NCBI GenBank assembly: GCA_964642065.1
Contig: CAZXNG010000002.1
Location: forward strand, 1 to 25,346
Direction of reading: 5' to 3'
DNA from: an uncultured Halobacteriales archaeon
GTDB taxonomy: Archaea > Halobacteriota > Halobacteria > Halobacteriales > Halorutilaceae
Length of the DNA: 25,346 nucleotides
The position numbers and the translations under genes were made by a program. Positions 5,836 to 15,333 of this stretch are shown here, piece by piece. Below the pieces are notes generated by a model that was given only the letters and a program-made list of their open reading frames with translations, was not told the origin of the DNA and searched no databases. The stretch's first letter is position 1. The number at the start of each line of letters is the position of its first letter.

Positions 5836-5908
5836 GCCGTCGTAGCTCAGCTGGTAGAGCGAGTCCTTCGTAAGGACTAGGCCGTGGGTTCAAATCCCAC
5901 CGACGGCT
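5836..5908 (+). tRNA. tRNA-Thr (anticodon CGT), no intron, CCA not encoded
   Basis: Cloverleaf: acceptor GCCGTCG/CGACGGC, D stem GCTC/GAGC, anticodon stem AGTCC/GGACT with loop TTCGTAA, T stem GTGGG/CCCAC with loop TTCAAAT. Confidence 0.97.
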
Positions 5909-5990: not shown

Positions 5991-7334
5991 TCACTCCCCG
6001 GGGTATCTCTCCTCCATCCCCTCGGTTACGTCTCTGGCTACCTGTTCGGCGATCAGTCTCCTGACTGCGGTGTCGAGGGTGTTGTCCACCAGTCGTTCGC
6101 TCGCGTCCGCCTCCACGAGGCGTTCGCTGGTCCTCTCGAGCGTCTCGTCCACGAGCGCGTCGCTCTGACCTTCCTCGATAGCTACTTCGGCGGCTTCCTC
6201 GACCAGTGCTTCTACGATGCGTTCGCTGGCGTTCGCCCTCACTATCTCTCCGGTGGCGGCCGTCAGGGTGTCCTCAACGAGGGCGTCGCTCTGACCTTCC
6301 TCGACCATCACGTCTCCGGCGTCGGAGACGAGGGCCTGGACGAGCGCGAGACTGGCTTGCTCTTGCTCTATCTCGCGGGTGATCGCTTCGAGGGTGTCCT
6401 GAAGTAGTCTGTCGCTCTCGCCTGCGTCTATCATGTCCTGGATAGCGACGTCTACTATGTCTGTAGCCAGGCTCTCGGCCTCGCCTTCGTCGACGAGTCT
6501 GTCGGCGCTGATGTCGAGGACTTCTTCGACGAGTTCGTCGCTGTAGCCCTGTTCGATGATGGTCTCGATGAGCTTGTTCCCTACGTCTTCGACTACCAGA
6601 TCCGATCTCCGCCCCAGTAGCTTGTGGGCGACCTTCTTGACCACCGTACGTACGGGACCCATCCTCCGTACGCCGGGCAGGTGGTCGAGCACGATGTCTG
6701 CGACGTCGAGCACGAGTTGGTCGCTCTCGGGACCCTGAAGTCTGTGTACTATCGCGTCGCCGACGTCCCACATGATATCCTCGGCGTACTCCTCGTCTTC
6801 CTTGAGCACGTGGACCGTGATGACGTCGACGCTGTCTCTGAGGAGGGCCTCGGACTCGCCGCTCTCCCGGACGCGGGTCTTGATGACGTCGCCGACGTCT
6901 TCGACTATCTCCTCTTCGAGGTCGGCGTCGGACACCACGCGGTATATCACATCGGCGCCTTCGTCGACCAGCTGTTCCTCGAGCTCTGCGTCTTCGACGC
7001 GGTGGTTGAGGACGTCGATAGTCTCCTCTACGACGTCTTCCTGGAGGTCGTGTTCGCGGCTTACCTCGAGGATGACGCGGGCGCCCTCCTCCACGAGCTG
7101 GTTCTGAAGTCCCGACTCCTGGATCCGGTTCTGGATCACGGCTACCGCGTCGCGTACGACGTCGTCGCTCAACCCCTCTTTACGAGTGGTCTCGCTGACC
7201 ACCTCCACGGTGTCGAACACCATGGTGTCCGCCTGTTCTTCGTCCAGGTTCTCGCTTATCTCCTCCTTGAGCGCCTCGGCCGCTTCGTCGATGTCGTCTT
7301 CCGAGATGGTTATCGAGTGCTCCGTCGAGGACAT
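5991..7334 (-). CDS. Hypothetical acidic all-alpha protein with ~18 copies of a 21-aa repeat and a central basic segment
   Basis: 447-aa ORF with typical halophile acidity and a TA-rich box 21-30 nt upstream. The repeat register S/Q/E/A-[DEN]-x-[LVI]-[VL]-x-[DE] recurs about every 21 aa. I recognise no family. Confidence 0.85.
   Translation of the reverse strand: MSSTEHSITISEDDIDEAAEALKEEISENLDEEQADTMVFDTVEVVSETTRKEGLSDDVVRDAVAVIQNRIQESGLQNQLVEEGARVILEVSREHDLQEDVVEETIDVLNHRVEDAELEEQLVDEGADVIYRVVSDADLEEEIVEDVGDVIKTRVRESGESEALLRDSVDVITVHVLKEDEEYAEDIMWDVGDAIVHRLQGPESDQLVLDVADIVLDHLPGVRRMGPVRTVVKKVAHKLLGRRSDLVVEDVGNKLIETIIEQGYSDELVEEVLDISADRLVDEGEAESLATDIVDVAIQDMIDAGESDRLLQDTLEAITREIEQEQASLALVQALVSDAGDVMVEEGQSDALVEDTLTAATGEIVRANASERIVEALVEEAAEVAIEEGQSDALVDETLERTSERLVEADASERLVDNTLDTAVRRLIAEQVARDVTEGMEERYPGE
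6157..6304. repeat. 22-bp exact direct repeat, 126 bp apart (42-codon super-repeat)
   Basis: GCGTCGCTCTGACCTTCCTCGA occurs at 6157-6178 and 6283-6304. Each copy lies within the codons for EEGQSDA. Confidence 0.9.
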
Positions 7335-7614: not shown

Positions 7615-8364
7615 ATGAGCCGGGTGGTCGTGGCGGGGGACGTCCATCTCGGCGCTCACAACTCGGACGCGGAGGCGTTCGCGGAGTTCCTCGACGAGCT
7701 ACACCGCCGGCAAGAGGAGGTGGACGAGGTGGTGCTGCTCGGTGACCTCTGGGACATGGTCCGGCGCGACCCCTTCGGAGTCGCCTGGGAGACCTCCGGT
7801 ATACTCGACGGTCTCAAGCGGTTGGCCGACGTGGTCCCTGTGCGCTACGTGCTGGGCAACCACGACGTATACCTCCGGGACCTCGACGGAGGACGTTACG
7901 AGCTCGACTTCCGGGAGAGCTACACCCTCGAGCAGGACGGCGTCAGCGTCCACTTCCGCCACGGGCACGAGTTCGACGGCCTGCACTCGAACCGGGTGTC
8001 GAGCTTCCTCTCGGGGCCGGGGGACCGCGGCGACATCGACCCCACCCGGGGTCTCAAGGACCCCGTGGTCGCCGGCGCCCGAGAGGTCATCTGCAGGACA
8101 CGAGGGTGGCTGCGCGCCGACGGAGGCGAGGAGGTCTATCCCCGAAGGGAGAGGAGGGCGCACGACTTCGCCGAGGGTATGTCCGCCGACAAGCTCGTCT
8201 ACGGCCACACTCATTCGCCGTACGTCAACCACGACGGCGTCGTGGCGAACGCGGGCTCCTGGAAGTCGACGGCTCCGGTACACAACACCTACGTCGAGGT
8301 TTCGGGAGGTAATCTGCGTCTGTACGAGTACCGTCGGGGTGGCGAGGACAGGCGGCTGGACTGA
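7615..8364 (+). CDS. Calcineurin-like metallophosphoesterase (YbbF/LpxH-like)
   Basis: Start moved to ATG 7615 (MSRVVVAGDVHLG). All five motifs are present: DxH, GDLWD, GNHD, HGHEFD and GHTH. Confidence 0.9.
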   Translation: MSRVVVAGDVHLGAHNSDAEAFAEFLDELHRRQEEVDEVVLLGDLWDMVRRDPFGVAWETSGILDGLKRLADVVPVRYVLGNHDVYLRDLDGGRYELDFRESYTLEQDGVSVHFRHGHEFDGLHSNRVSSFLSGPGDRGDIDPTRGLKDPVVAGAREVICRTRGWLRADGGEEVYPRRERRAHDFAEGMSADKLVYGHTHSPYVNHDGVVANAGSWKSTAPVHNTYVEVSGGNLRLYEYRRGGEDRRLD

Positions 8365-8430: not shown

Positions 8431-9099
8431 TCAGAACAGGCTCGTTATCGCTCCGGCGACGAACAGTAGGAGGACGCCGAACAGGAACAGGAGCAGGAGG
8501 ATGGGTGTGGCGCGCAGGGCGACGTGGCTCACGGGGAGGAGCCGGGCCTTGTTGGACCAGTTGAGCGCGGAGCCGATGACGAGCGACGGCGCGGAGACGT
8601 CCCGTGCTCGCAGCCTCTCGGAGTCCTGTATCAACGCTTCGACCCAGTCGTGGAGGGGTTCGAGGTCGTGGCCCGACCCCCCGTTGAGCCGGAGGTTCAG
8701 CTCCGTGTTGTACTCGAAGGCGACGCGGGTGATGTTCGCGGAGCCGAGTATGCACTCGGGTTCGGGCCCCATCCGGAGGTAGAGCTTCGCGTGGAGCCCC
8801 TTCGGTCGCTTGTAGATCTCCACCTGGTCGCGGTCGTCCATACGCCAGAGGTCCCGTGCTATCCCCGGCGAGAGCTGGTCGGAGGTGGAGCCCACCACCA
8901 CCTTCAGCCTGTTGTCGGGGGATCTGTCGAGGAAGGACTCGACGTCCTCCCTCAGGCTGAGGTAGCCTTGCTTGGTGAAGTAGCCGCTGACCAGGTAGAT
9001 GGTTCCGTCGCCGTCGAACAGGTCGGAGAGCGCCTGCTTGAACCGGGGCTCCGTGGTGTCGGTGTCGAGGATCTCGTACGTACGCCGTGGGTCGCTCAT
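8431..9099 (-). CDS. Single-domain phospholipase D-superfamily protein (restriction-endonuclease-like HxK type) with a C-terminal transmembrane helix
   Basis: VSGYF, LH103AK105LYL, GSAN(119-122) and N131xE133. C-terminal hydrophobic stretch ILLLLFLFGVLLLFVAGAITSLF. No signal peptide. Confidence 0.85.
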   Translation of the reverse strand: MSDPRRTYEILDTDTTEPRFKQALSDLFDGDGTIYLVSGYFTKQGYLSLREDVESFLDRSPDNRLKVVVGSTSDQLSPGIARDLWRMDDRDQVEIYKRPKGLHAKLYLRMGPEPECILGSANITRVAFEYNTELNLRLNGGSGHDLEPLHDWVEALIQDSERLRARDVSAPSLVIGSALNWSNKARLLPVSHVALRATPILLLLFLFGVLLLFVAGAITSLF

Positions 9100-9205: not shown

Positions 9206-9613
9206 CTACAGCACGTACGACACGAACGTCACGAACGGCCCGAACACCAGCACCCCGATGACGAGCGCGGCGATGTACGCCCTTCTGTTCTGGCGCTCTA
9301 TCTTCTCCGCGGTCATCTCCGTCAGGTCGGCGACGTCGCGGCGGGCGTCGTCGGGGATGCGGTACCTTTCGGGGCCGGCACCTGGTTCGTTCGTCCTCTC
9401 CCCGTGCCGCTGTATCTCGTCCTTCGTCAGCTCGTGGTACTCGCGTACGCGGCCGGAGAGGCTGTCCTCGTCCTCGCCGGCGTCGGGGTAGACGACGGGT
9501 TCGTCTCTCCGCAGCCTTTCGAGGTTGTCCTCGTGCACCGCCTGTATCCGGCGGCGCTCCTCGACGCCGCCGAAGGCGTCGGGTGTGGCGATGGCGAGGG
9601 TTGCTGCGGGCAT
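9206..9613 (-). CDS. Hypothetical tail-anchored membrane protein (135 aa)
   Basis: Charged soluble N-terminal part, then RQNRR (positive-inside), then a single C-terminal hydrophobic helix AYIAALVIGVLVFGPFVTFVSYVL. Confidence 0.65.
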   Translation of the reverse strand: MPAATLAIATPDAFGGVEERRRIQAVHEDNLERLRRDEPVVYPDAGEDEDSLSGRVREYHELTKDEIQRHGERTNEPGAGPERYRIPDDARRDVADLTEMTAEKIERQNRRAYIAALVIGVLVFGPFVTFVSYVL

Positions 9614-9724: not shown

Positions 9725-11311
9725 ATGAACGCAGGGTCACGTCGGGTCCTGTTGGCGCTGGCTCTGTCGGGCGTCGTGTTGCTCGTCTGCTCAGGCGTCG
9801 TCGCCGGCGCCGTCGGAGCCGGGGTGTCTGCCGGAGACGACGTCGAAGAGGACGGAGACGGTGGCGACGAGGTGGTCGTCAGGTTCACTCCGGCACCCTC
9901 CGACCTCGACGACGCCGACGGCCTCAGGAGACACGCGAGAGACAGCCAGAGCGCCTTCGTCGACCACGTGGAGGGTCGGGGCGACGTAGACGTAGTGAGG
10001 AGGTTCTGGATATCTAACTCCGCGCTCGTCGAGGTCGAGGGAGACGCCGCCGACGGGCTCGACGAGCTAGAGGGCGTCGTCGGAGTCCATCCGAACTACA
10101 GGTACCGGGTGGCTCAGGTCGAGTCCGAGCTCGACGAGGGTCCGCCGAGAGATATCGGTCACGTACGGAGCAGCCACGGATACGTCGTCGACTACGGCGT
10201 GGACGTCGTCAACGCTACCGGGGTCTGGAACGAGACCATGGGCGACGGCGTCAAGGTCGCGGTCCTCGACACGGGCGTGGAGCCCTCCCACCCCGACGTC
10301 GACCTCTACACGGACGACGTCGCGGACCCCGCTAGACCGGGAGGCTGGAGCGAGTTCGACGCCCAGGGAGTCGCTGTGGACAGCGAGCCCTACGACGCCG
10401 GCGTCCACGGAACCCACGTCAGCGGAACGGTGGCCGGTGGCGACGACTCCGGCGTCTACATCGGGGTGGCGCCGGAAGCGGAGCTTCTGCACGCGAAGGT
10501 CTTCGACGTCGGCGGCACGTTCGCGCAGATCAACGCCGGCATGGAGTGGGCTGTGGAGGAGGACGCCGACGTCATGAGCCTGAGCTTCGGGGTCGAATGT
10601 GAGGAGGGGGAGGACGGCTCCCGCTACGTCCGTCCGATGGTCGAGCCGGTTCTGAACGCCGAAGCCGCGGGGACGTTCGTCGTAGCGGCCACGGGCAACG
10701 GAGGCGAGGGGTGCACGAGCTCGCCGTCGAACGTGCCCGATTCCTTCGCGGTCGGCGCAGTCGACAGGTTCCTTCAGGTGCCGTCGTTCTCGGGCGGCGG
10801 CGATGTCGACACCTCGGAGGCGTGGGGCGACGCCGCTCGCGAGAACTGGTCGGAGAGCTACGTCGTACCCGACGCCGTGGCTCCAGGGGTCGAGGTGGTG
10901 AGCGCTGTCCCGGGCGGAGGCTACCGTGACATGGACGGCACGAGCATGGCTGCGCCTCACGTCGCAGGTGCCGCGGCGCTGGTGCAGTCCACGACCGAGG
11001 AACGCCTCGAACCCGACGAGCTCAGGGAAGCGCTGGAGCGGTCGACGTGGAAGCCGGACGACGCATCCGCGGACAAGGACGTCAGGTACGGTGAAGGCAT
11101 CGTCGACGTCTACGACGCCGTCGAACACGTGCGAGCCCAGAAGGAAGAGGTATCAGACGGGGGAGAGAGCGAAGGGAACGAAACGGGGAACGAGACGGGG
11201 AACGAGACGGGGAACGAGTCGGACGGCTCGCCCGAGGATATGCCGGGCATGGGTTTCGCCGCGGCAGTCGCCGCGCTGTCGGGGCTCGTCGTGCTCCGTC
11301 GGAAGACGTAA
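9725..11311 (+). CDS. Subtilisin-like S8 serine protease with signal peptide, I9-type propeptide and a PGF-CTERM-like sorting signal
   Basis: Catalytic triad VAVLDTG, HGTHVSGT and GTSMAAPH, with the oxyanion Asn in AATGN. The N-terminus has SRRVLL plus an h-region. The C-terminus is PGMGFAAAVAALSGLVVLRRKT. Confidence 0.93.
   Translation: MNAGSRRVLLALALSGVVLLVCSGVVAGAVGAGVSAGDDVEEDGDGGDEVVVRFTPAPSDLDDADGLRRHARDSQSAFVDHVEGRGDVDVVRRFWISNSALVEVEGDAADGLDELEGVVGVHPNYRYRVAQVESELDEGPPRDIGHVRSSHGYVVDYGVDVVNATGVWNETMGDGVKVAVLDTGVEPSHPDVDLYTDDVADPARPGGWSEFDAQGVAVDSEPYDAGVHGTHVSGTVAGGDDSGVYIGVAPEAELLHAKVFDVGGTFAQINAGMEWAVEEDADVMSLSFGVECEEGEDGSRYVRPMVEPVLNAEAAGTFVVAATGNGGEGCTSSPSNVPDSFAVGAVDRFLQVPSFSGGGDVDTSEAWGDAARENWSESYVVPDAVAPGVEVVSAVPGGGYRDMDGTSMAAPHVAGAAALVQSTTEERLEPDELREALERSTWKPDDASADKDVRYGEGIVDVYDAVEHVRAQKEEVSDGGESEGNETGNETGNETGNESDGSPEDMPGMGFAAAVAALSGLVVLRRKT
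11174..11221 (+). repeat. Tandem 12-bp coding repeat x4 (GNET GNET GNET GNES)
   Basis: GGGAACGAAACG, GGGAACGAGACG, GGGAACGAGACG, GGGAACGAGTCG. Confidence 0.92.
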
Positions 11312-11337
11312 GCCCGCGAGGCACCGGTCTCGTACCG

Positions 11338-12954
11338 ATGAGCGTCAACGATGCGTTGGACTCCGCCGGCCGCGTGCTCCGGGAGCGGCCGTCGGACGTG
11401 CTTCCGATCTACCTGCTGGGTATCAGCAGCGTCGCGGTGGTACGGGTCACGCCGTTCCTCTCCGCGGCGCTCGTCTACCTCGTACTCGCCTACCACGGGC
11501 GCACGGGAGAGGTCGTGGACCTGCTCGCCACGGTCGACGTAGACTCCCTGCTCGACCCGGAGACAGCCGGGCCTGCGTCTTCCGACGCCCTGACGCAGGC
11601 GTTCGACCTCGTGGTGTCCACTCCCGGGGTGGTGCCGGTTCTGGCGCTGTCCGTCGTCGCGGTCGTCCTGGTCTCCGTCGTCGTGAACGCTCTCGTCGGC
11701 GCGGGCAGGGTGCACACGGTGTACTCCGCTCTCCAGGGGGGCGACGGACTGCAGGACGGCGTCGCGGGCGCGGTGGAGGACTACGACTCCTTCGTCGTGC
11801 TCGCTCTGCTGGAGGTTTTCGGCGTCCTCTTGTTCTCGGGTGTAGCTTTGATGCTCGGCGGCCTCGTCGTGCTCTACTTCGACGGCGTGGTCGCGGCCGC
11901 CTTCGGCGTCCTCCTGGGTCTCATCTGGCTGGTCTCCGTCCTGATGTTGCATCTGGTGTTCCTTTTCGCGCCGCAGTCCGTCGTGGTCGACGACGTCGGC
12001 GCGGTGGAGGGGGTGCGCGGCAACCTGGGGTTCCTGAAGCGGGAGCCCGTGGACTTCCTAGCCTACCTCGCGGTCGCGGTCGTCGGAGTCACGGTGCTCG
12101 GCACGTTCGCGGGCGTGTTCGCGGCCGCAGGCGCGGACGCGGTGACGCCGCTTCTCGCCTACGTCGCGCTGCTTCCGGCGCTCGACCTGGTGAAGACCGA
12201 CCTCTACGCCCGACACGCCGACACGGTCTACGGCGGCGACGAAGGCAGCCACGGCCACCCGAAGGACCCGGTGGAGAGCGGTGTCGAAAGCCAGCGGGAC
12301 GACGGTTCCGCGGCTTACGTCGAGGTCGAGGCTTCGTCGTCGTATCTGCCGGCTCCCGTTCGTTCCGCGCTGTCGAGGCTGAAGGCGGAGCTCCGGAGGG
12401 GCTGGCGGGAGATGGTGTCTTTCTGCTTCGAGAGGCCGTGGCTGCTGGTCGCGTCCGGCGTACTGTTCGCGTCGTCCTTCGCGGTGGGTTTCAGAGTGGC
12501 GGACCTCTACCTCGGGAGTTTCGAGTCGTCGATACAGGGGCGTCTCGAGACCGTGTCTCCGCTGGGCGGCTTCCTGAACTACTCGGCGAACAACTGGTCG
12601 GTCGCGGTCACCTCCGCGTACTCGGGGCTCGCGCTCTCCGTCCCGACGGTGTTCGCCCTCGCCTTCAACGGAGCGTTGCTCGGCGGACTGGTCGCGACGG
12701 AGGTAGAGCCGATGGAGCTCCTGGGGTTCGTGCTGCCTCACGGGGTGGTGGAGATACCTGCGCTGCTGATATCGGGGGCGCTCGGCCTCTACCTCGGCGG
12801 CGTCGCCTGGGGGTATCTCCGCGGCTCGGTCGACGTCGACACTCTGGCCCGCGAGGTCGAGAGAGCGTACCTCGTGCTCGTGGGTCTCGCAGTGCTGTTC
12901 GTGCTGGCGGGACTGGTGGAGGGTTTCGTCAGCCCCTATCTGCTGATGGAGTGA
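11338..12954 (+). CDS. Stage II sporulation protein M (SpoIIM/DUF95)-like multi-pass membrane protein with an extra N-terminal membrane domain
   Basis: The C-terminal domain has NNWSVA...NGALLG...LPHGVVEIPALLISGALG, typical of the SpoIIM family. Many hydrophobic helices. Confidence 0.85.
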   Translation: MSVNDALDSAGRVLRERPSDVLPIYLLGISSVAVVRVTPFLSAALVYLVLAYHGRTGEVVDLLATVDVDSLLDPETAGPASSDALTQAFDLVVSTPGVVPVLALSVVAVVLVSVVVNALVGAGRVHTVYSALQGGDGLQDGVAGAVEDYDSFVVLALLEVFGVLLFSGVALMLGGLVVLYFDGVVAAAFGVLLGLIWLVSVLMLHLVFLFAPQSVVVDDVGAVEGVRGNLGFLKREPVDFLAYLAVAVVGVTVLGTFAGVFAAAGADAVTPLLAYVALLPALDLVKTDLYARHADTVYGGDEGSHGHPKDPVESGVESQRDDGSAAYVEVEASSSYLPAPVRSALSRLKAELRRGWREMVSFCFERPWLLVASGVLFASSFAVGFRVADLYLGSFESSIQGRLETVSPLGGFLNYSANNWSVAVTSAYSGLALSVPTVFALAFNGALLGGLVATEVEPMELLGFVLPHGVVEIPALLISGALGLYLGGVAWGYLRGSVDVDTLAREVERAYLVLVGLAVLFVLAGLVEGFVSPYLLME

Positions 12955-13980: not shown

Positions 13981-14697
13981 ATGCGAGTCAGGAGCGGCGA
14001 CGGCTCCGAAGGTGCACGAGTCTGGCTGGATCGCTCCGAAGTGGACTTCCTCCTGGACAACGCCGACTTTGGCGAACAGACGGGGTTCGTAGACGTCGGC
14101 GGCGGACAGACGGTCTTCGTCGACGACGCCGAAGACATCCGCAGGTTCGCCCTCGCCTTAGGAGTTCGATGCGGGCTCCGCGCCGAAGAGGTGGTCACCG
14201 TCACCGCCGACGACGTAGTCGAGGTGGACGCCGGAACAAGGATACATGTAGAGGGAGGAGGAGAAGAGAGGTTAGCTCCCATCGCCCCGTGGATGGCTTC
14301 CTCGGTCGACCGGTACTCCACCGGAGCCTCGGCCCCGGGAGACAGCCCGTTGCTCGACGTCGGCGTCGACACCATCGAGAACTGGATACGCGAGGCCGCC
14401 GAAAGATGCCGTATACAGTCCGAGGAAGACGGCTGGCGCCACGTCGACAGCCGCGACCTCCGGCGGACCTGGGCGCGTCTCCTCGTCGACAGCGGAGTCG
14501 ACCCCGCGCTCGTCATGGAGTGGGGCGGCTGGAGCGACTGGAGGAGCTACCGCGAGACCTGCTACGGCTCCTGTCCACCCGAGGTCGAACGCACCGAAGC
14601 CAAGAAAGCACCCTGGATGGGAGAAGAGGAGACCGGAAGTGTCTCGACACGGAAGGTCAGCAGGAGAGCGTCCGGCGACCTCGACGTGAAGCAGTGA
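13981..14697 (+). CDS. Short tyrosine recombinase/integrase-family protein (haloarchaeal type), probably catalytically degenerate
   Basis: RVWL.R.EV, LGVRCGLR67, DLR161RTWA, VMEWGGW and terminal E..K.PW match short haloarchaeal integrases. The expected K, H and Y positions are substituted (see findings). Confidence 0.85.
   Translation: MRVRSGDGSEGARVWLDRSEVDFLLDNADFGEQTGFVDVGGGQTVFVDDAEDIRRFALALGVRCGLRAEEVVTVTADDVVEVDAGTRIHVEGGGEERLAPIAPWMASSVDRYSTGASAPGDSPLLDVGVDTIENWIREAAERCRIQSEEDGWRHVDSRDLRRTWARLLVDSGVDPALVMEWGGWSDWRSYRETCYGSCPPEVERTEAKKAPWMGEEETGSVSTRKVSRRASGDLDVKQ
14071..14130 (+). repeat. Imperfect tandem 30-bp duplication inside the recombinase gene
   Basis: 14071-14100 versus 14101-14130 match at 24 of 30 positions, encoding GEQTGFVDVG and GGQTVFVDDA. 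Confidence 0.75.
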
Positions 14698-15258: not shown

Positions 15259-15333
15259 TGGGCCCAGTCGGATTTGAACCGACGACCACTCGGTTATGAG
15301 CCGAGCGCTCTAACCAGTCTGAGCTATGGGCCC
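15259..15333 (-). tRNA. tRNA-Ile2 (anticodon CAT, agmatidine-modified, reads AUA)
   Basis: Reverse complement: GGGCCCA TA GCTC AGACTGGTTA GAGC G CTCGG CTCATAA CCGAG TGGTC GTCGG TTCAAAT CCGAC TGGGCCC A. The GGGCCC acceptor and CTCGG-CTCATAA-CCG arm match haloarchaeal tRNA-Ile2 rather than initiator or elongator Met. Confidence 0.9.

What the first reader, a model, noticed from the sequence alone, without database searches (positions are those of the whole stretch)
8431..9099. Tail-anchored, restriction-type PLD domain: a possible membrane-tethered nuclease
Seen: one HxK motif lacking the canonical Asp (HAKLYLRM), with SGYF, GSAN and NxE, and a C-terminal 23-aa hydrophobic helix with no N-terminal signal. 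Established: single-HxK PLDs act as homodimers (Nuc, BfiI, Zucchini/mitoPLD), whereas cardiolipin synthases have two HKD motifs. The SGYF/HAK/GSAN/NxE pattern resembles restriction-endonuclease-like PLDs usually fused to helicases. Inference: a stand-alone nuclease held on the cytoplasmic face of the membrane, where viral or transforming DNA enters. This would be a topological mirror of N-anchored Zucchini.
Basis: partly seen in the sequence, partly recalled or inferred. Interest (0 to 1): 0.62.

Follow-up and report, generated by a model that had tools for sequence, protein, structure and literature searches.

The report
Tail-anchored PLD enzyme with swappable partner
This haloarchaeal gene encodes a nuclease-type phospholipase-D-fold enzyme held at the membrane by a C-terminal helix, and it almost always sits beside a second phosphate-ester-cutting enzyme, forming an undescribed two-gene unit whose substrate (DNA/RNA or membrane lipid) is still open.

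Summary
Window 8431-9099 (-) is a real 222-aa gene with one HxK motif (H103/K105), SGYF, GSAN and NxE. Its only strongly hydrophobic segment is the last 26 residues.

About 110 haloarchaeal protein clusters share this architecture, and an AlphaFold2 model is confident (pLDDT 92). By sequence and fold the domain belongs to the nuclease branch of the PLD superfamily (BfiI, SauUSI, NucT). Its nearest outside kin are the N-terminal nuclease domains of PLD-SNF2 helicases (34% identity).

It is not "stand-alone":
- In 26 of 29 main-clade loci a second phosphoesterase is adjacent. This is a YbhP-like EEP enzyme (21 loci) or an LpxH-like metallophosphoesterase (5 loci, including this window, where the two genes are convergent).
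- A sister clade always pairs with the metallophosphoesterase but lacks the membrane tail.
- The pair is patchy (8% of Halobacteriales genomes sampled), moves between contexts, and was never seen next to defence genes.

My best reading (about 50%) is a membrane-tethered dimeric nuclease whose partner trims or dephosphorylates the ends. The main rival (about 30%) is a lipid-headgroup enzyme pair, analogous to E. coli ybhP-clsB. An anti-viral role is possible but unsupported.

Verdict: a new variant of a known kind, of moderate interest.

The parts
8431..9099 (-). Gene for the 222-aa tail-anchored single-HKD PLD-superfamily protein (P0001)
   Evidence: ORF and translation; Pfam PLDc_2; BfiI match; 109 homologous clusters; AF2 model with pLDDT 91.9
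8785..8793 (-). HxK catalytic motif (H103-A-K105). It aligns to BfiI H105/K107. The canonical Asp position (res 110, 8770-8772) is Met here.
   Evidence: Translation check; HMMER alignment to 2c1l; H103 and K105 invariant, D110 present in at least 90% of relatives
8701..8745 (-). GSAN (res 119-122) to NxE (res 131-133), the second half of the PLD active site. N122 and E133 align to BfiI N125 and E136.
8533..8562 (-). Juxtamembrane motif NWSNKARLLP (res 180-189), at the end of predicted helix 170-185. W181 and K184 are invariant. A related motif, TWxxKGRINLP, is kept in the anchor-less sister clade.
8434..8511 (-). C-terminal tail anchor (res 197-222), preceded by basic residues K184, R186 and R196
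   Evidence: Hydropathy of 110 homologs; AF2 helix 190-221 at pLDDT 92-97; translation
7615..8364 (+). Partner gene: a 249-aa LpxH-like metallophosphoesterase with intact metal-binding motifs (GDVHLG, GDLWD, GNHD, GHTH). It is convergent with the PLD gene, with 66 bp between the two stop codons.
   Evidence: Pfam Metallophos; NCBIfam weak LpxH/YfcE hits; adjacency in relatives; AF2 plus Foldseek, top 24 hits all LpxH; invariant residues
9100..9140 (-). Upstream region with a TTTTTAT box 25-31 nt before the PLD ATG. This is a possible own TATA box with a leaderless mRNA (inference only).

Best explanation
The gene encodes an active PLD-superfamily phosphodiesterase of the BfiI/NgoFVII/SauUSI nuclease branch. 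It has a single HKD motif, so two copies must pair to form one active site. The C-terminal helix would then hold that dimer on the cytoplasmic face of the membrane as a tail-anchored protein.

It works together with the neighbouring phosphoesterase. Here the partner is an LpxH-like metallophosphoesterase. In Natrialbaceae it is a YbhP-like EEP enzyme.

The most likely mechanism is as follows. The dimer cuts the phosphodiester backbone of DNA or RNA that comes close to the membrane, through a covalent phospho-His103 intermediate. The partner then trims the ends or removes the terminal phosphate.

Shown: the fold, the catalytic residues, conservation of the tail, the gene pairing and the partner swap. 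Inferred: dimerisation, membrane insertion and topology, the nucleic-acid substrate, the division of labour with the partner, and the biological role (defence, DNA uptake or salvage, or turnover).
For: Catalytic site:
- H103/K105/N122/E133 align to BfiI H105/K107/N125/E136 and are invariant in 105 relatives.

Kinship with nucleases:
- The family profile hits only BfiI (6.3e-9) and SauUSI (1.3e-4) in the PDB.
- Top Foldseek hits are the SauUSI nuclease domain (E 8e-11), NucT and BfiI. NgoAVII, Nuc, Zucchini and PLD3/4 also appear.
- In 1.84 billion representatives the nearest non-family proteins are about 1100-aa PLD+SNF2 helicases (E 1.5e-40 and 1.1e-37).
- These show 34% identity over 170 aa (E 6e-32) and share family-specific motifs such as DQFSxxIAxDLWxLD. 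They score as DrmD/BrxH/PLD_Helicase in PADLOC.

Tail anchor:
- All full-length homologs have one hydrophobic segment, at the extreme C-terminus, with basic residues before it.
- AF2 gives pLDDT 91.9 with a continuous helix 190-221.

Pairing:
- An EEP gene lies directly upstream in 21 loci and an MPE gene directly downstream in 5, out of 29 main-clade loci.
- Close EEP orthologs were found only next to the PLD: 12 of 14 EEP-positive genomes among 301.
- The MPE was found only in PLD-bearing genomes, apart from one MPE fragment (G008) at the start of a contig in an incomplete genome where no PLD was detected.
- The pairing survives three gene orders: PLD then MPE in tandem, MPE then PLD in tandem, and convergent in this window.

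Partner activity:
- Both partners keep their catalytic residues.
- Both superfamilies contain DNA exonucleases and 3'-phosphatases. In E. coli K-12 the best sequence hit of the MPE profile is SbcD. The best PDB hits of the EEP profile include the ExoIII homolog 3g91/3fzi.
Against: - No activity, localisation or expression data exist.
- Both partners also have lipid-side look-alikes. The MPE model's top 24 structural hits are all LpxH. The EEP is closest, among E. coli proteins, to YbhP, whose gene lies in the cardiolipin synthase B operon.
- A membrane anchor is what one expects of a lipid enzyme.
- PssA, a lipid-synthesising PLD, matches the model with TM-scores similar to SauUSI (0.58-0.61 against 0.60-0.63).
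- The sister clade with the same MPE partner has no TM, so the anchor is not essential to the pair's chemistry.
- The catalytic domain is acidic overall (net charge -8, pI 4.9). That is normal for halophiles but gives no sign of a DNA-binding surface.
- I could not inspect model coordinates to see whether the active site faces the membrane.
Confidence: 0.5

Rival explanations
1. Lipid-headgroup module. The tail-anchored PLD acts on membrane phospholipids. It would either hydrolyse them to archaetidic acid or transfer the phosphatidyl group, as cardiolipin and phosphatidylserine synthases do. The partner (LpxH-like MPE or YbhP-like EEP) would cleave a neighbouring phosphoester, for example a CDP-archaeol pyrophosphate, the PGP-Me methylphosphate, or the phosphate of the PLD product. 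The pair would then remodel or scavenge phosphate from the membrane, like E. coli ybhP-clsB or the PlcP-type metallophosphoesterases of bacteria.
For: - The tail anchor puts the enzyme at the bilayer.
- The MPE model's top 24 PDB matches are all LpxH, with the same length and a helical insert at the same place. JGI names several homologs LpxH.
- The EEP partner is 29% identical over 171 aa to E. coli YbhP. YbhP is the best hit of the EEP profile in the whole K-12 chromosome (3.6e-7), ahead of YafD; XthA was not hit.
- ybhP-clsB-ybhN has the same EEP-then-PLD gene order (bioRxiv 10.1101/2022.03.11.483950; PMC9241728).
- Neighbourhoods are housekeeping genes, not defence islands.
- Both proteins are strongly conserved (mean column identity 66% for the PLD and 80% for the EEP).
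- PlcP-type metallophosphoesterases that remodel lipids under phosphate limitation are described (PMC4796936).
Against: - The PLD domain has no sequence match to any lipid-acting PLD in the PDB. Against ClsB, hhalign gives only 45% probability over 58 columns.
- It has one HKD motif, whereas cardiolipin and PS synthases have two.
- Its closest kin are helicase-fused nuclease domains.
- The MPE insert that corresponds to the LpxH lipid-binding cap is Arg/Asp-rich and modelled with low confidence (pLDDT 51-62), not hydrophobic.
- The sister clade lacks any anchor.
- YbhP itself has no known function.
- The pair is present in only 8% of Halobacteriales genomes sampled, so it cannot be a core lipid pathway.
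Confidence: 0.3
2. Dedicated antiviral or anti-plasmid defence at the DNA entry site. The tether keeps a non-specific nuclease away from the chromosome and close to injected DNA, as shown for the bacterial GIY-YIG protein SNIPE.
For: - The domain is nuclease-type and kin to defence-type PLD helicases. PADLOC gives weak matches to ZacB (1.3e-10), REase_II and DrmC.
- The distribution is patchy: 23 of 301 Halobacteriales, and 30 of 140 Natrialbaceae genomes in 16 of 31 genera.
- The pair sits in different contexts and sometimes on megaplasmids.
- In this window it lies in a variable segment between two tRNA genes, near a degenerate integrase.
- A membrane-bound nuclease that cuts entering phage DNA now has a precedent (PMC13190303).
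Against: - No recognisable defence gene was annotated in 10 annotated neighbourhoods.
- The partners have no PADLOC hit.
- NCBIfam DrmC scores 17.5 bits against a cut-off of 133.
- Sequence conservation is high for a defence gene.
- The sister clade is not membrane-bound.
- The protein has no recognisable sensor or DNA-binding domain of the kind SNIPE needs (DUF4041).
- There are no homologs in phage records.
Confidence: 0.2
3. The pair acts on another phosphodiester or phosphoanhydride that is neither nucleic acid nor membrane lipid, for example a nucleotide signal, polyphosphate, a CDP-alcohol, or a surface-polymer precursor.
For: - PLD, MPE and EEP superfamilies are all chemically broad.
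- Polyphosphate-kinase C-terminal domains appear among the viral fold matches.
- No context gene points to a specific pathway.
Against: - No positive evidence exists.
- The closest relatives by far are DNA enzymes.
Confidence: 0.1

Closest known systems
BfiI / NgoFVII / NgoAVII / SauUSI-type PLD nuclease domains (PDB 2c1l, 4rct, 7clg), and the N-terminal PLD domain of PLD-SNF2 helicases
   Same: - One HKD motif per chain.
- The same four catalytic residues align.
- These are the best sequence and fold matches.
- 34% identity over 170 aa to a helicase-fused copy.
   Different: - Those domains are fused to a DNA-recognition or helicase module and are soluble.
- This protein has no DNA-recognition or motor domain. 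It ends in a tail anchor and is paired with a separate phosphoesterase.
- Pfam RE_NgoFVII (PF09565) did not reach significance for this protein.
Zucchini / MitoPLD (PDB 4gel), and Nuc / NucT
   Same: - Small single-HKD PLDs that act as homodimers.
- Zucchini is membrane-anchored with its catalytic domain in the cytosol.
- They are structural matches.
   Different: - Zucchini is anchored by an N-terminal helix to the mitochondrial outer membrane. Nuc and NucT are secreted.
- Sequence identity is only 12-15%.
- No partner phosphoesterase is known for them (my own knowledge).
E. coli ybhP-clsB-ybhN operon (EEP protein plus PLD-type cardiolipin synthase B)
   Same: - The same EEP-then-PLD tandem order.
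- The haloarchaeal EEP is nearer to YbhP than to any other E. coli EEP.
   Different: - ClsB has two HKD motifs, about 413 aa and no TM.
- The PLD here is not ClsB-like by sequence.
- There is no YbhN/PplT-like third gene.
- YbhP's function is unknown.
SNIPE, the membrane-bound GIY-YIG nuclease that cuts phage DNA during injection (PMC13190303)
   Same: The concept of a nuclease tethered to the cytoplasmic face of the membrane.
   Different: - An unrelated nuclease fold, with an N-terminal TM and a DUF4041 DNA/tape-measure-binding domain.
- It is bacterial.
- A defence role is demonstrated there and untested here.

Membership tests
PLD superfamily (Pfam PLDc_2, PF13091) | HxK(x)4D motif with downstream GSxN and NxE, scoring above the Pfam gathering threshold | tested here: met
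   27.8 bits against a cut-off of 27. H103, K105, S120, N122 and E133 are present and invariant in the family. The Asp is replaced by Met in this protein only.
BfiI/NgoFVII-type restriction PLD nucleases | Sequence and fold similarity to the N-terminal catalytic domain, with aligned catalytic His/Lys/Asn/Glu | tested here: met
   2c1l matches at E 1.5e-5 (single sequence) and 6.3e-9 (profile). Foldseek matches 2c1l, 4rct and 7clg.
BfiI/NgoFVII-type restriction PLD nucleases | Fusion or association with a DNA-recognition domain (B3-like) or helicase, and membership of Pfam RE_NgoFVII | tested here: not met
   There is no domain other than PLDc_2, and PF09565 was not reported for this protein. 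The C-terminus is a TM helix.
Nuclease activity (any PLD nuclease) | Cleavage of DNA or RNA | not testable with these tools
   This needs biochemistry.
Tail-anchored membrane proteins | A single TM segment within about 30 residues of the C-terminus, no N-terminal signal, and the bulk of the protein N-terminal to the anchor | tested here: met
   The hydrophobic segment is res 197-222 and is the only one. It is conserved in all full-length homologs. AF2 predicts helix 190-221.
Tail-anchored membrane proteins | Post-translational insertion with a cytosolic N-terminal domain | not testable with these tools
   Only the basic residues before the helix (K184, R186, R196) fit the positive-inside rule.
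Cardiolipin / phosphatidylserine synthases of the PLD type (ClsA/B/C, PssA) | Two HKD motifs in one chain | tested here: not met
   The protein has one HxK motif in 222 aa. hhalign against ClsB gives 45% probability over 58 columns.
Zucchini/MitoPLD | Single HKD with an N-terminal membrane anchor | tested here: not met
   The single HKD is met, but the anchor is C-terminal. Zucchini (4gel) shares 15% identity.
DISARM DrmC | Score above the NCBIfam cut-off, and neighbouring drmA/B/D/MTase genes | tested here: not met
   NF038319 scores 17.5 bits against a cut-off of 133. No DISARM genes occur in the window.
LpxH (partner MPE) | Equivalog score, and a lipid A pathway in the organism | tested here: not met
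   PRK05340 scores 31.7 bits against a cut-off of 134. Fold similarity only. That archaea lack lipid A is my own knowledge.

The most novel reading that the evidence does not exclude
The PLD plus an interchangeable second phosphoesterase (EEP or MPE) is a compact archaeal immunity or DNA-gatekeeping cassette. In this reading self and non-self are told apart purely by location. A sequence-non-specific PLD nuclease dimer is tail-anchored at the inner face of the membrane and destroys DNA as it enters, and the partner degrades the ends. The anchor-less sister clade would be a differently targeted version.
Probability: 0.2. Interest if true: 0.75.

Novelty: new variant of a known kind. Interest (0 to 1): 0.5.

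Why it matters
- It would be the first tail-anchored member of the nuclease branch of the PLD superfamily. It would also be a first example of a PLD enzyme with an obligate second phosphoesterase that can be swapped between two unrelated folds.
- If it is a nuclease, archaea would gain a spatially restricted nuclease comparable to Zucchini or SNIPE.
- If it acts on lipids, a nuclease-type PLD would have been recruited to membrane chemistry. The parallel with ybhP-clsB would then give a handle on the unknown function of bacterial YbhP.
- Either way, the gene pair is a clean, small, testable unit in cultivable haloarchaea (Natrialba, Natronorubrum, Halorutilus).

Tried and rejected
- The 135-aa tail-anchored neighbour (9206-9613) and the acidic repeat protein (5991-7334) as further parts of the module: neither has a homolog next to any other PLD locus.
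- DrmC/DISARM membership: far below the cut-off, and no DISARM genes nearby.
- ClsB-like identity of the PLD: weak.
- PADLOC for the partners: no hits.
- Phage records: no homolog.
- Viral fold library: only generic PLD folds such as poxvirus envelope proteins and NucT-like proteins.
- PDB sequence search for the partners: only marginal hits, namely ExoIII-like proteins and a putative EEP for the EEP, and Mre11/SbcD for the MPE.
- Partner genes next to the basal, partner-less paralogs (L045-L049): none within about 6 kb.
- One search of earlier findings by words failed on syntax.
- I could not obtain model coordinates, so the orientation of the active site relative to the tail was not analysed.
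- My first ORF clustering missed the EEP in L037. tblastn corrected this.

Full report
**1. The observation**

Window 8431-9099 (-) is a 222-aa ORF.
- SGYF at res 38-41.
- HAK at H103-K105.
- GSAN at res 119-122.
- NTE at res 131-133.
- Met where the canonical Asp of HxK(x)4D would be (res 110).
- A terminal uncharged stretch, ATPILLLLFLFGVLLLFVAGAITSLF (res 197-222). This is 26 residues, not 23.

That stretch is the only hydrophobic segment. Its Kyte-Doolittle 19-residue mean is 3.11, against at most 0.58 elsewhere, so there is no signal peptide. Pfam PLDc_2 is just above its gathering score (27.8 against 27).

The window is haloarchaeal chromosome. GC content is about 65%, and SecY and the ribosomal-protein operon lie at 15.9-25 kb. 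The source is an incomplete assembly (G000: 78% complete, 286 contigs) whose family also holds Halorutilus salinus.

**2. The family**

A search of 5.8 billion proteins found 109 clusters. Most are 214-225 aa and all are haloarchaeal. Their names are only "phospholipase D family protein" or "NgoFVII family restriction endonuclease".

In 105 aligned members H103, K105, S120, N122, N131 and E133 are invariant. D110 is present in at least 90%, so the missing Asp is peculiar to this protein and its closest relative.

Every full-length member has a single, extreme C-terminal hydrophobic segment. It is preceded by the nearly invariant basic motif NWSNKARLLPxRNVALR. In most members the uncharged run is 15-16 residues followed by R-x-V. 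Here and in the Halorutilus-like subgroup it is 22-26 residues.

AlphaFold2 with this alignment gives pLDDT 91.9. It predicts a PLD core, helix 170-185, and a continuous helix 190-221.

**3. Which kind of PLD**

- Sequence: the protein alone matches BfiI (2c1l) at E 1.5e-5 over res 27-143. The alignment puts H103/K105/N122/E133 on BfiI 105/107/125/136. The family profile hits only BfiI (6.3e-9) and SauUSI (1.3e-4) in the whole PDB.
- Fold: Foldseek ranks the SauUSI nuclease domain first (E 8e-11), then NucT and BfiI. NgoAVII, Nuc, Zucchini, PLD3/4 and also PssA follow.
- Wider search: an exhaustive profile search of 1.84 billion representatives found only 17 proteins at E <= 1e-10. After the family itself come about 1100-aa proteins with an N-terminal PLD and an SNF2 helicase (E 1.5e-40 and 1.1e-37).
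- One of these helicase proteins is 34% identical over 170 aa and shares family-specific motifs. That is as close as the family's own anchor-less sister clade (31%). These helicase proteins score as DrmD/BrxH/PLD_Helicase in PADLOC.
- Against E. coli ClsB the profile gives only 45% probability over 58 columns.
- Among the 149 representatives scanned for hydrophobic segments, a C-terminal TM occurs only in this family. A few others have N-terminal hydrophobic segments.

So "restriction-type PLD" and "tail-anchored" both hold.

**4. It is not stand-alone**

*The metallophosphoesterase partner.* In the window a 249-aa metallophosphoesterase (MPE, 7615-8364, +) ends 66 bp from the end of the PLD gene, in convergent orientation. 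In Halorutilus salinus and two related assemblies the same MPE (66-69% identity) follows the PLD in tandem. Among 61 relatives the MPE occurs in six genomes. Five of these carry the PLD. The sixth, G008, has only an MPE fragment at the start of a contig.

*The EEP partner.* I analysed 34 loci from named genomes and assemblies.
- In the main clade of 29 loci, 21 have an approximately 259-aa endonuclease/exonuclease/phosphatase (EEP) gene directly upstream on the same strand.
- Five have the MPE downstream.
- Three have neither, and in one of those the contig ends 125 bp after the PLD.
- Close EEP orthologs were found in 12 of 301 Halobacteriales genomes, always next to the PLD. Only two distant EEP homologs stood alone.

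*Partner swap.* A maximum-likelihood tree places the MPE-linked subclade inside the EEP-linked clade, so the partner has been exchanged. The window's protein sits on a long branch (0.95), so its exact position is unsure.

*Paralogs.* Basal paralogs (41-46% identity) have no partner nearby. Several are second copies in genomes that also carry a main-clade copy.

*An anchor-less sister clade.* More distant MPE homologs in Halorussus, Natrinema and Salinibaculum are each followed by a PLD of 214-221 aa. These PLDs keep a TWxxKGRINLP motif but end in a short acidic tail with no TM. Six further genomes with this sister-clade PLD all have the MPE just upstream. Four partner-less genomes of the tail-anchored (TA) clade have no MPE anywhere.

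The invariant core is therefore PLD plus a second phosphoesterase. The tail anchor defines one large clade.

**5. Distribution and context**

The family is found in 23 of 301 Halobacteriales genomes. In Natrialbaceae it is found in 30 of 140 genomes, in 16 of 31 genera.

The flanking genes differ from genus to genus. They include cytochrome oxidase, carotenoid genes, a bat regulator, P450, aminotransferase, UbiB, ArsA and endonuclease V. None of the annotated neighbours was a recognisable defence gene. Some copies lie on megaplasmids. None was found in phage records.

In same-family relatives without the pair, the subtilase-SpoIIM genes of the window are conserved but the segment 5991-9613 is not. 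That segment lies between tRNA-Thr and tRNA-Met(CAT), near a degenerate integrase. The pair therefore behaves as a small accessory cassette.

**6. The partners**

Both keep their catalytic residues.

- MPE: the model (pLDDT 81) has LpxH as its top 24 PDB matches, followed by YfcE-like proteins and Mre11/SbcD. The insert at the position of LpxH's lipid-binding cap is Arg/Asp-rich and poorly modelled (pLDDT 51-62). By sequence, in the E. coli K-12 chromosome, SbcD (2.4e-4) and LpxH (4.1e-4) are about equal.
- EEP: the profile's best K-12 hit is YbhP (3.6e-7), then YafD; XthA is not hit. Pairwise identity to YbhP is 29% over 171 aa. ybhP lies immediately upstream of clsB, the PLD-type cardiolipin synthase B gene, in the ybhP-clsB-ybhN operon (bioRxiv 10.1101/2022.03.11.483950; PMC9241728).
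- Neither partner matches PADLOC.

**7. Interpretation**

Firmly shown:
- An active-looking single-HKD PLD of the nuclease branch.
- A conserved C-terminal anchor.
- A conserved partner phosphoesterase that has been exchanged between two unrelated folds.

Inferred:
- Homodimerisation, which is required because there is only one HKD motif, as in Nuc, BfiI and Zucchini.
- Cytoplasmic orientation, from the absence of a signal peptide and the basic residues before the helix.
- The substrate.

I weigh the close kinship to helicase-fused DNA nucleases as the strongest single clue. On that basis I favour a nucleic-acid substrate (about 50%), with the partner acting as an exonuclease or 3'-phosphatase. 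Both the EEP and MPE superfamilies contain such enzymes, which would explain why either can serve.

The lipid reading (about 30%) rests on the anchor, the LpxH-like fold, and the YbhP/ClsB parallel. It is weakened by the single HKD, the lack of any lipid-PLD sequence signal, the charged MPE insert, and the anchor-less sister clade.

It now has a bacterial precedent in SNIPE (PMC13190303), but nothing here supports it beyond patchiness. I give it about 20%, as a subset of the nuclease reading.

**8. Novelty**

The proteins are annotated only generically. A full-text search for tail-anchored PLD nucleases in archaea found nothing. The architecture and the two-gene cassette appear undescribed, but each component belongs to a known superfamily. 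I class it as a new variant of a known kind, with interest 0.5.

Noticed in passing
window 9206-9613 (-): A 135-aa protein directly upstream of the PLD also ends in a hydrophobic helix (YIAALVIGVLVFGPFVTFVSYVL). It has no Pfam, NCBIfam or PADLOC hit and no homolog beside any other PLD locus.
   Followed up: partly
L052 2751-3878 (Halorussus halophilus CP044523): An ArsA/Get3-type ATPase gene lies divergently next to an MPE-PLD pair of the anchor-less clade. This ATPase family targets tail-anchored proteins in other organisms. It was seen only once.
   Followed up: no
window 9725-12954 (+): The subtilase and SpoIIM-like genes stay adjacent in three relatives that lack the PLD/MPE pair (G001, G005, G006). 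The flank on the subtilase's upstream side differs in each.
   Followed up: partly
window 5836-5908 (+) and 15259-15333 (-): tRNA-Thr(CGT) and tRNA-Met(CAT) bracket the variable region. That region holds the repeat protein, MPE, PLD and a 238-aa Phage_integrase-family ORF (13981-14697).
   Followed up: partly
G084:C6:65918-66721: The MPE copy next to an anchor-less PLD carries one in-frame TAG. It may be a pseudogene or a sequencing error.
   Followed up: no
L059 1534-4645 (Salinigranum marinum plasmid NZ_CP100463.1): An MPE-PLD pair sits directly after an orc1/cdc6 replication-initiator gene on a 321-kb plasmid. Pairs of the anchor-less clade were found on three megaplasmids.
   Followed up: no
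L050 285-497 (MAG labelled Gemmatimonadetes, SKNW01000046.1): A partial PLD match (51% identity to res 8-78) lies near the end of the fetched stretch in a bacterial-labelled bin. It is probably a mis-binned haloarchaeal contig.
   Followed up: no
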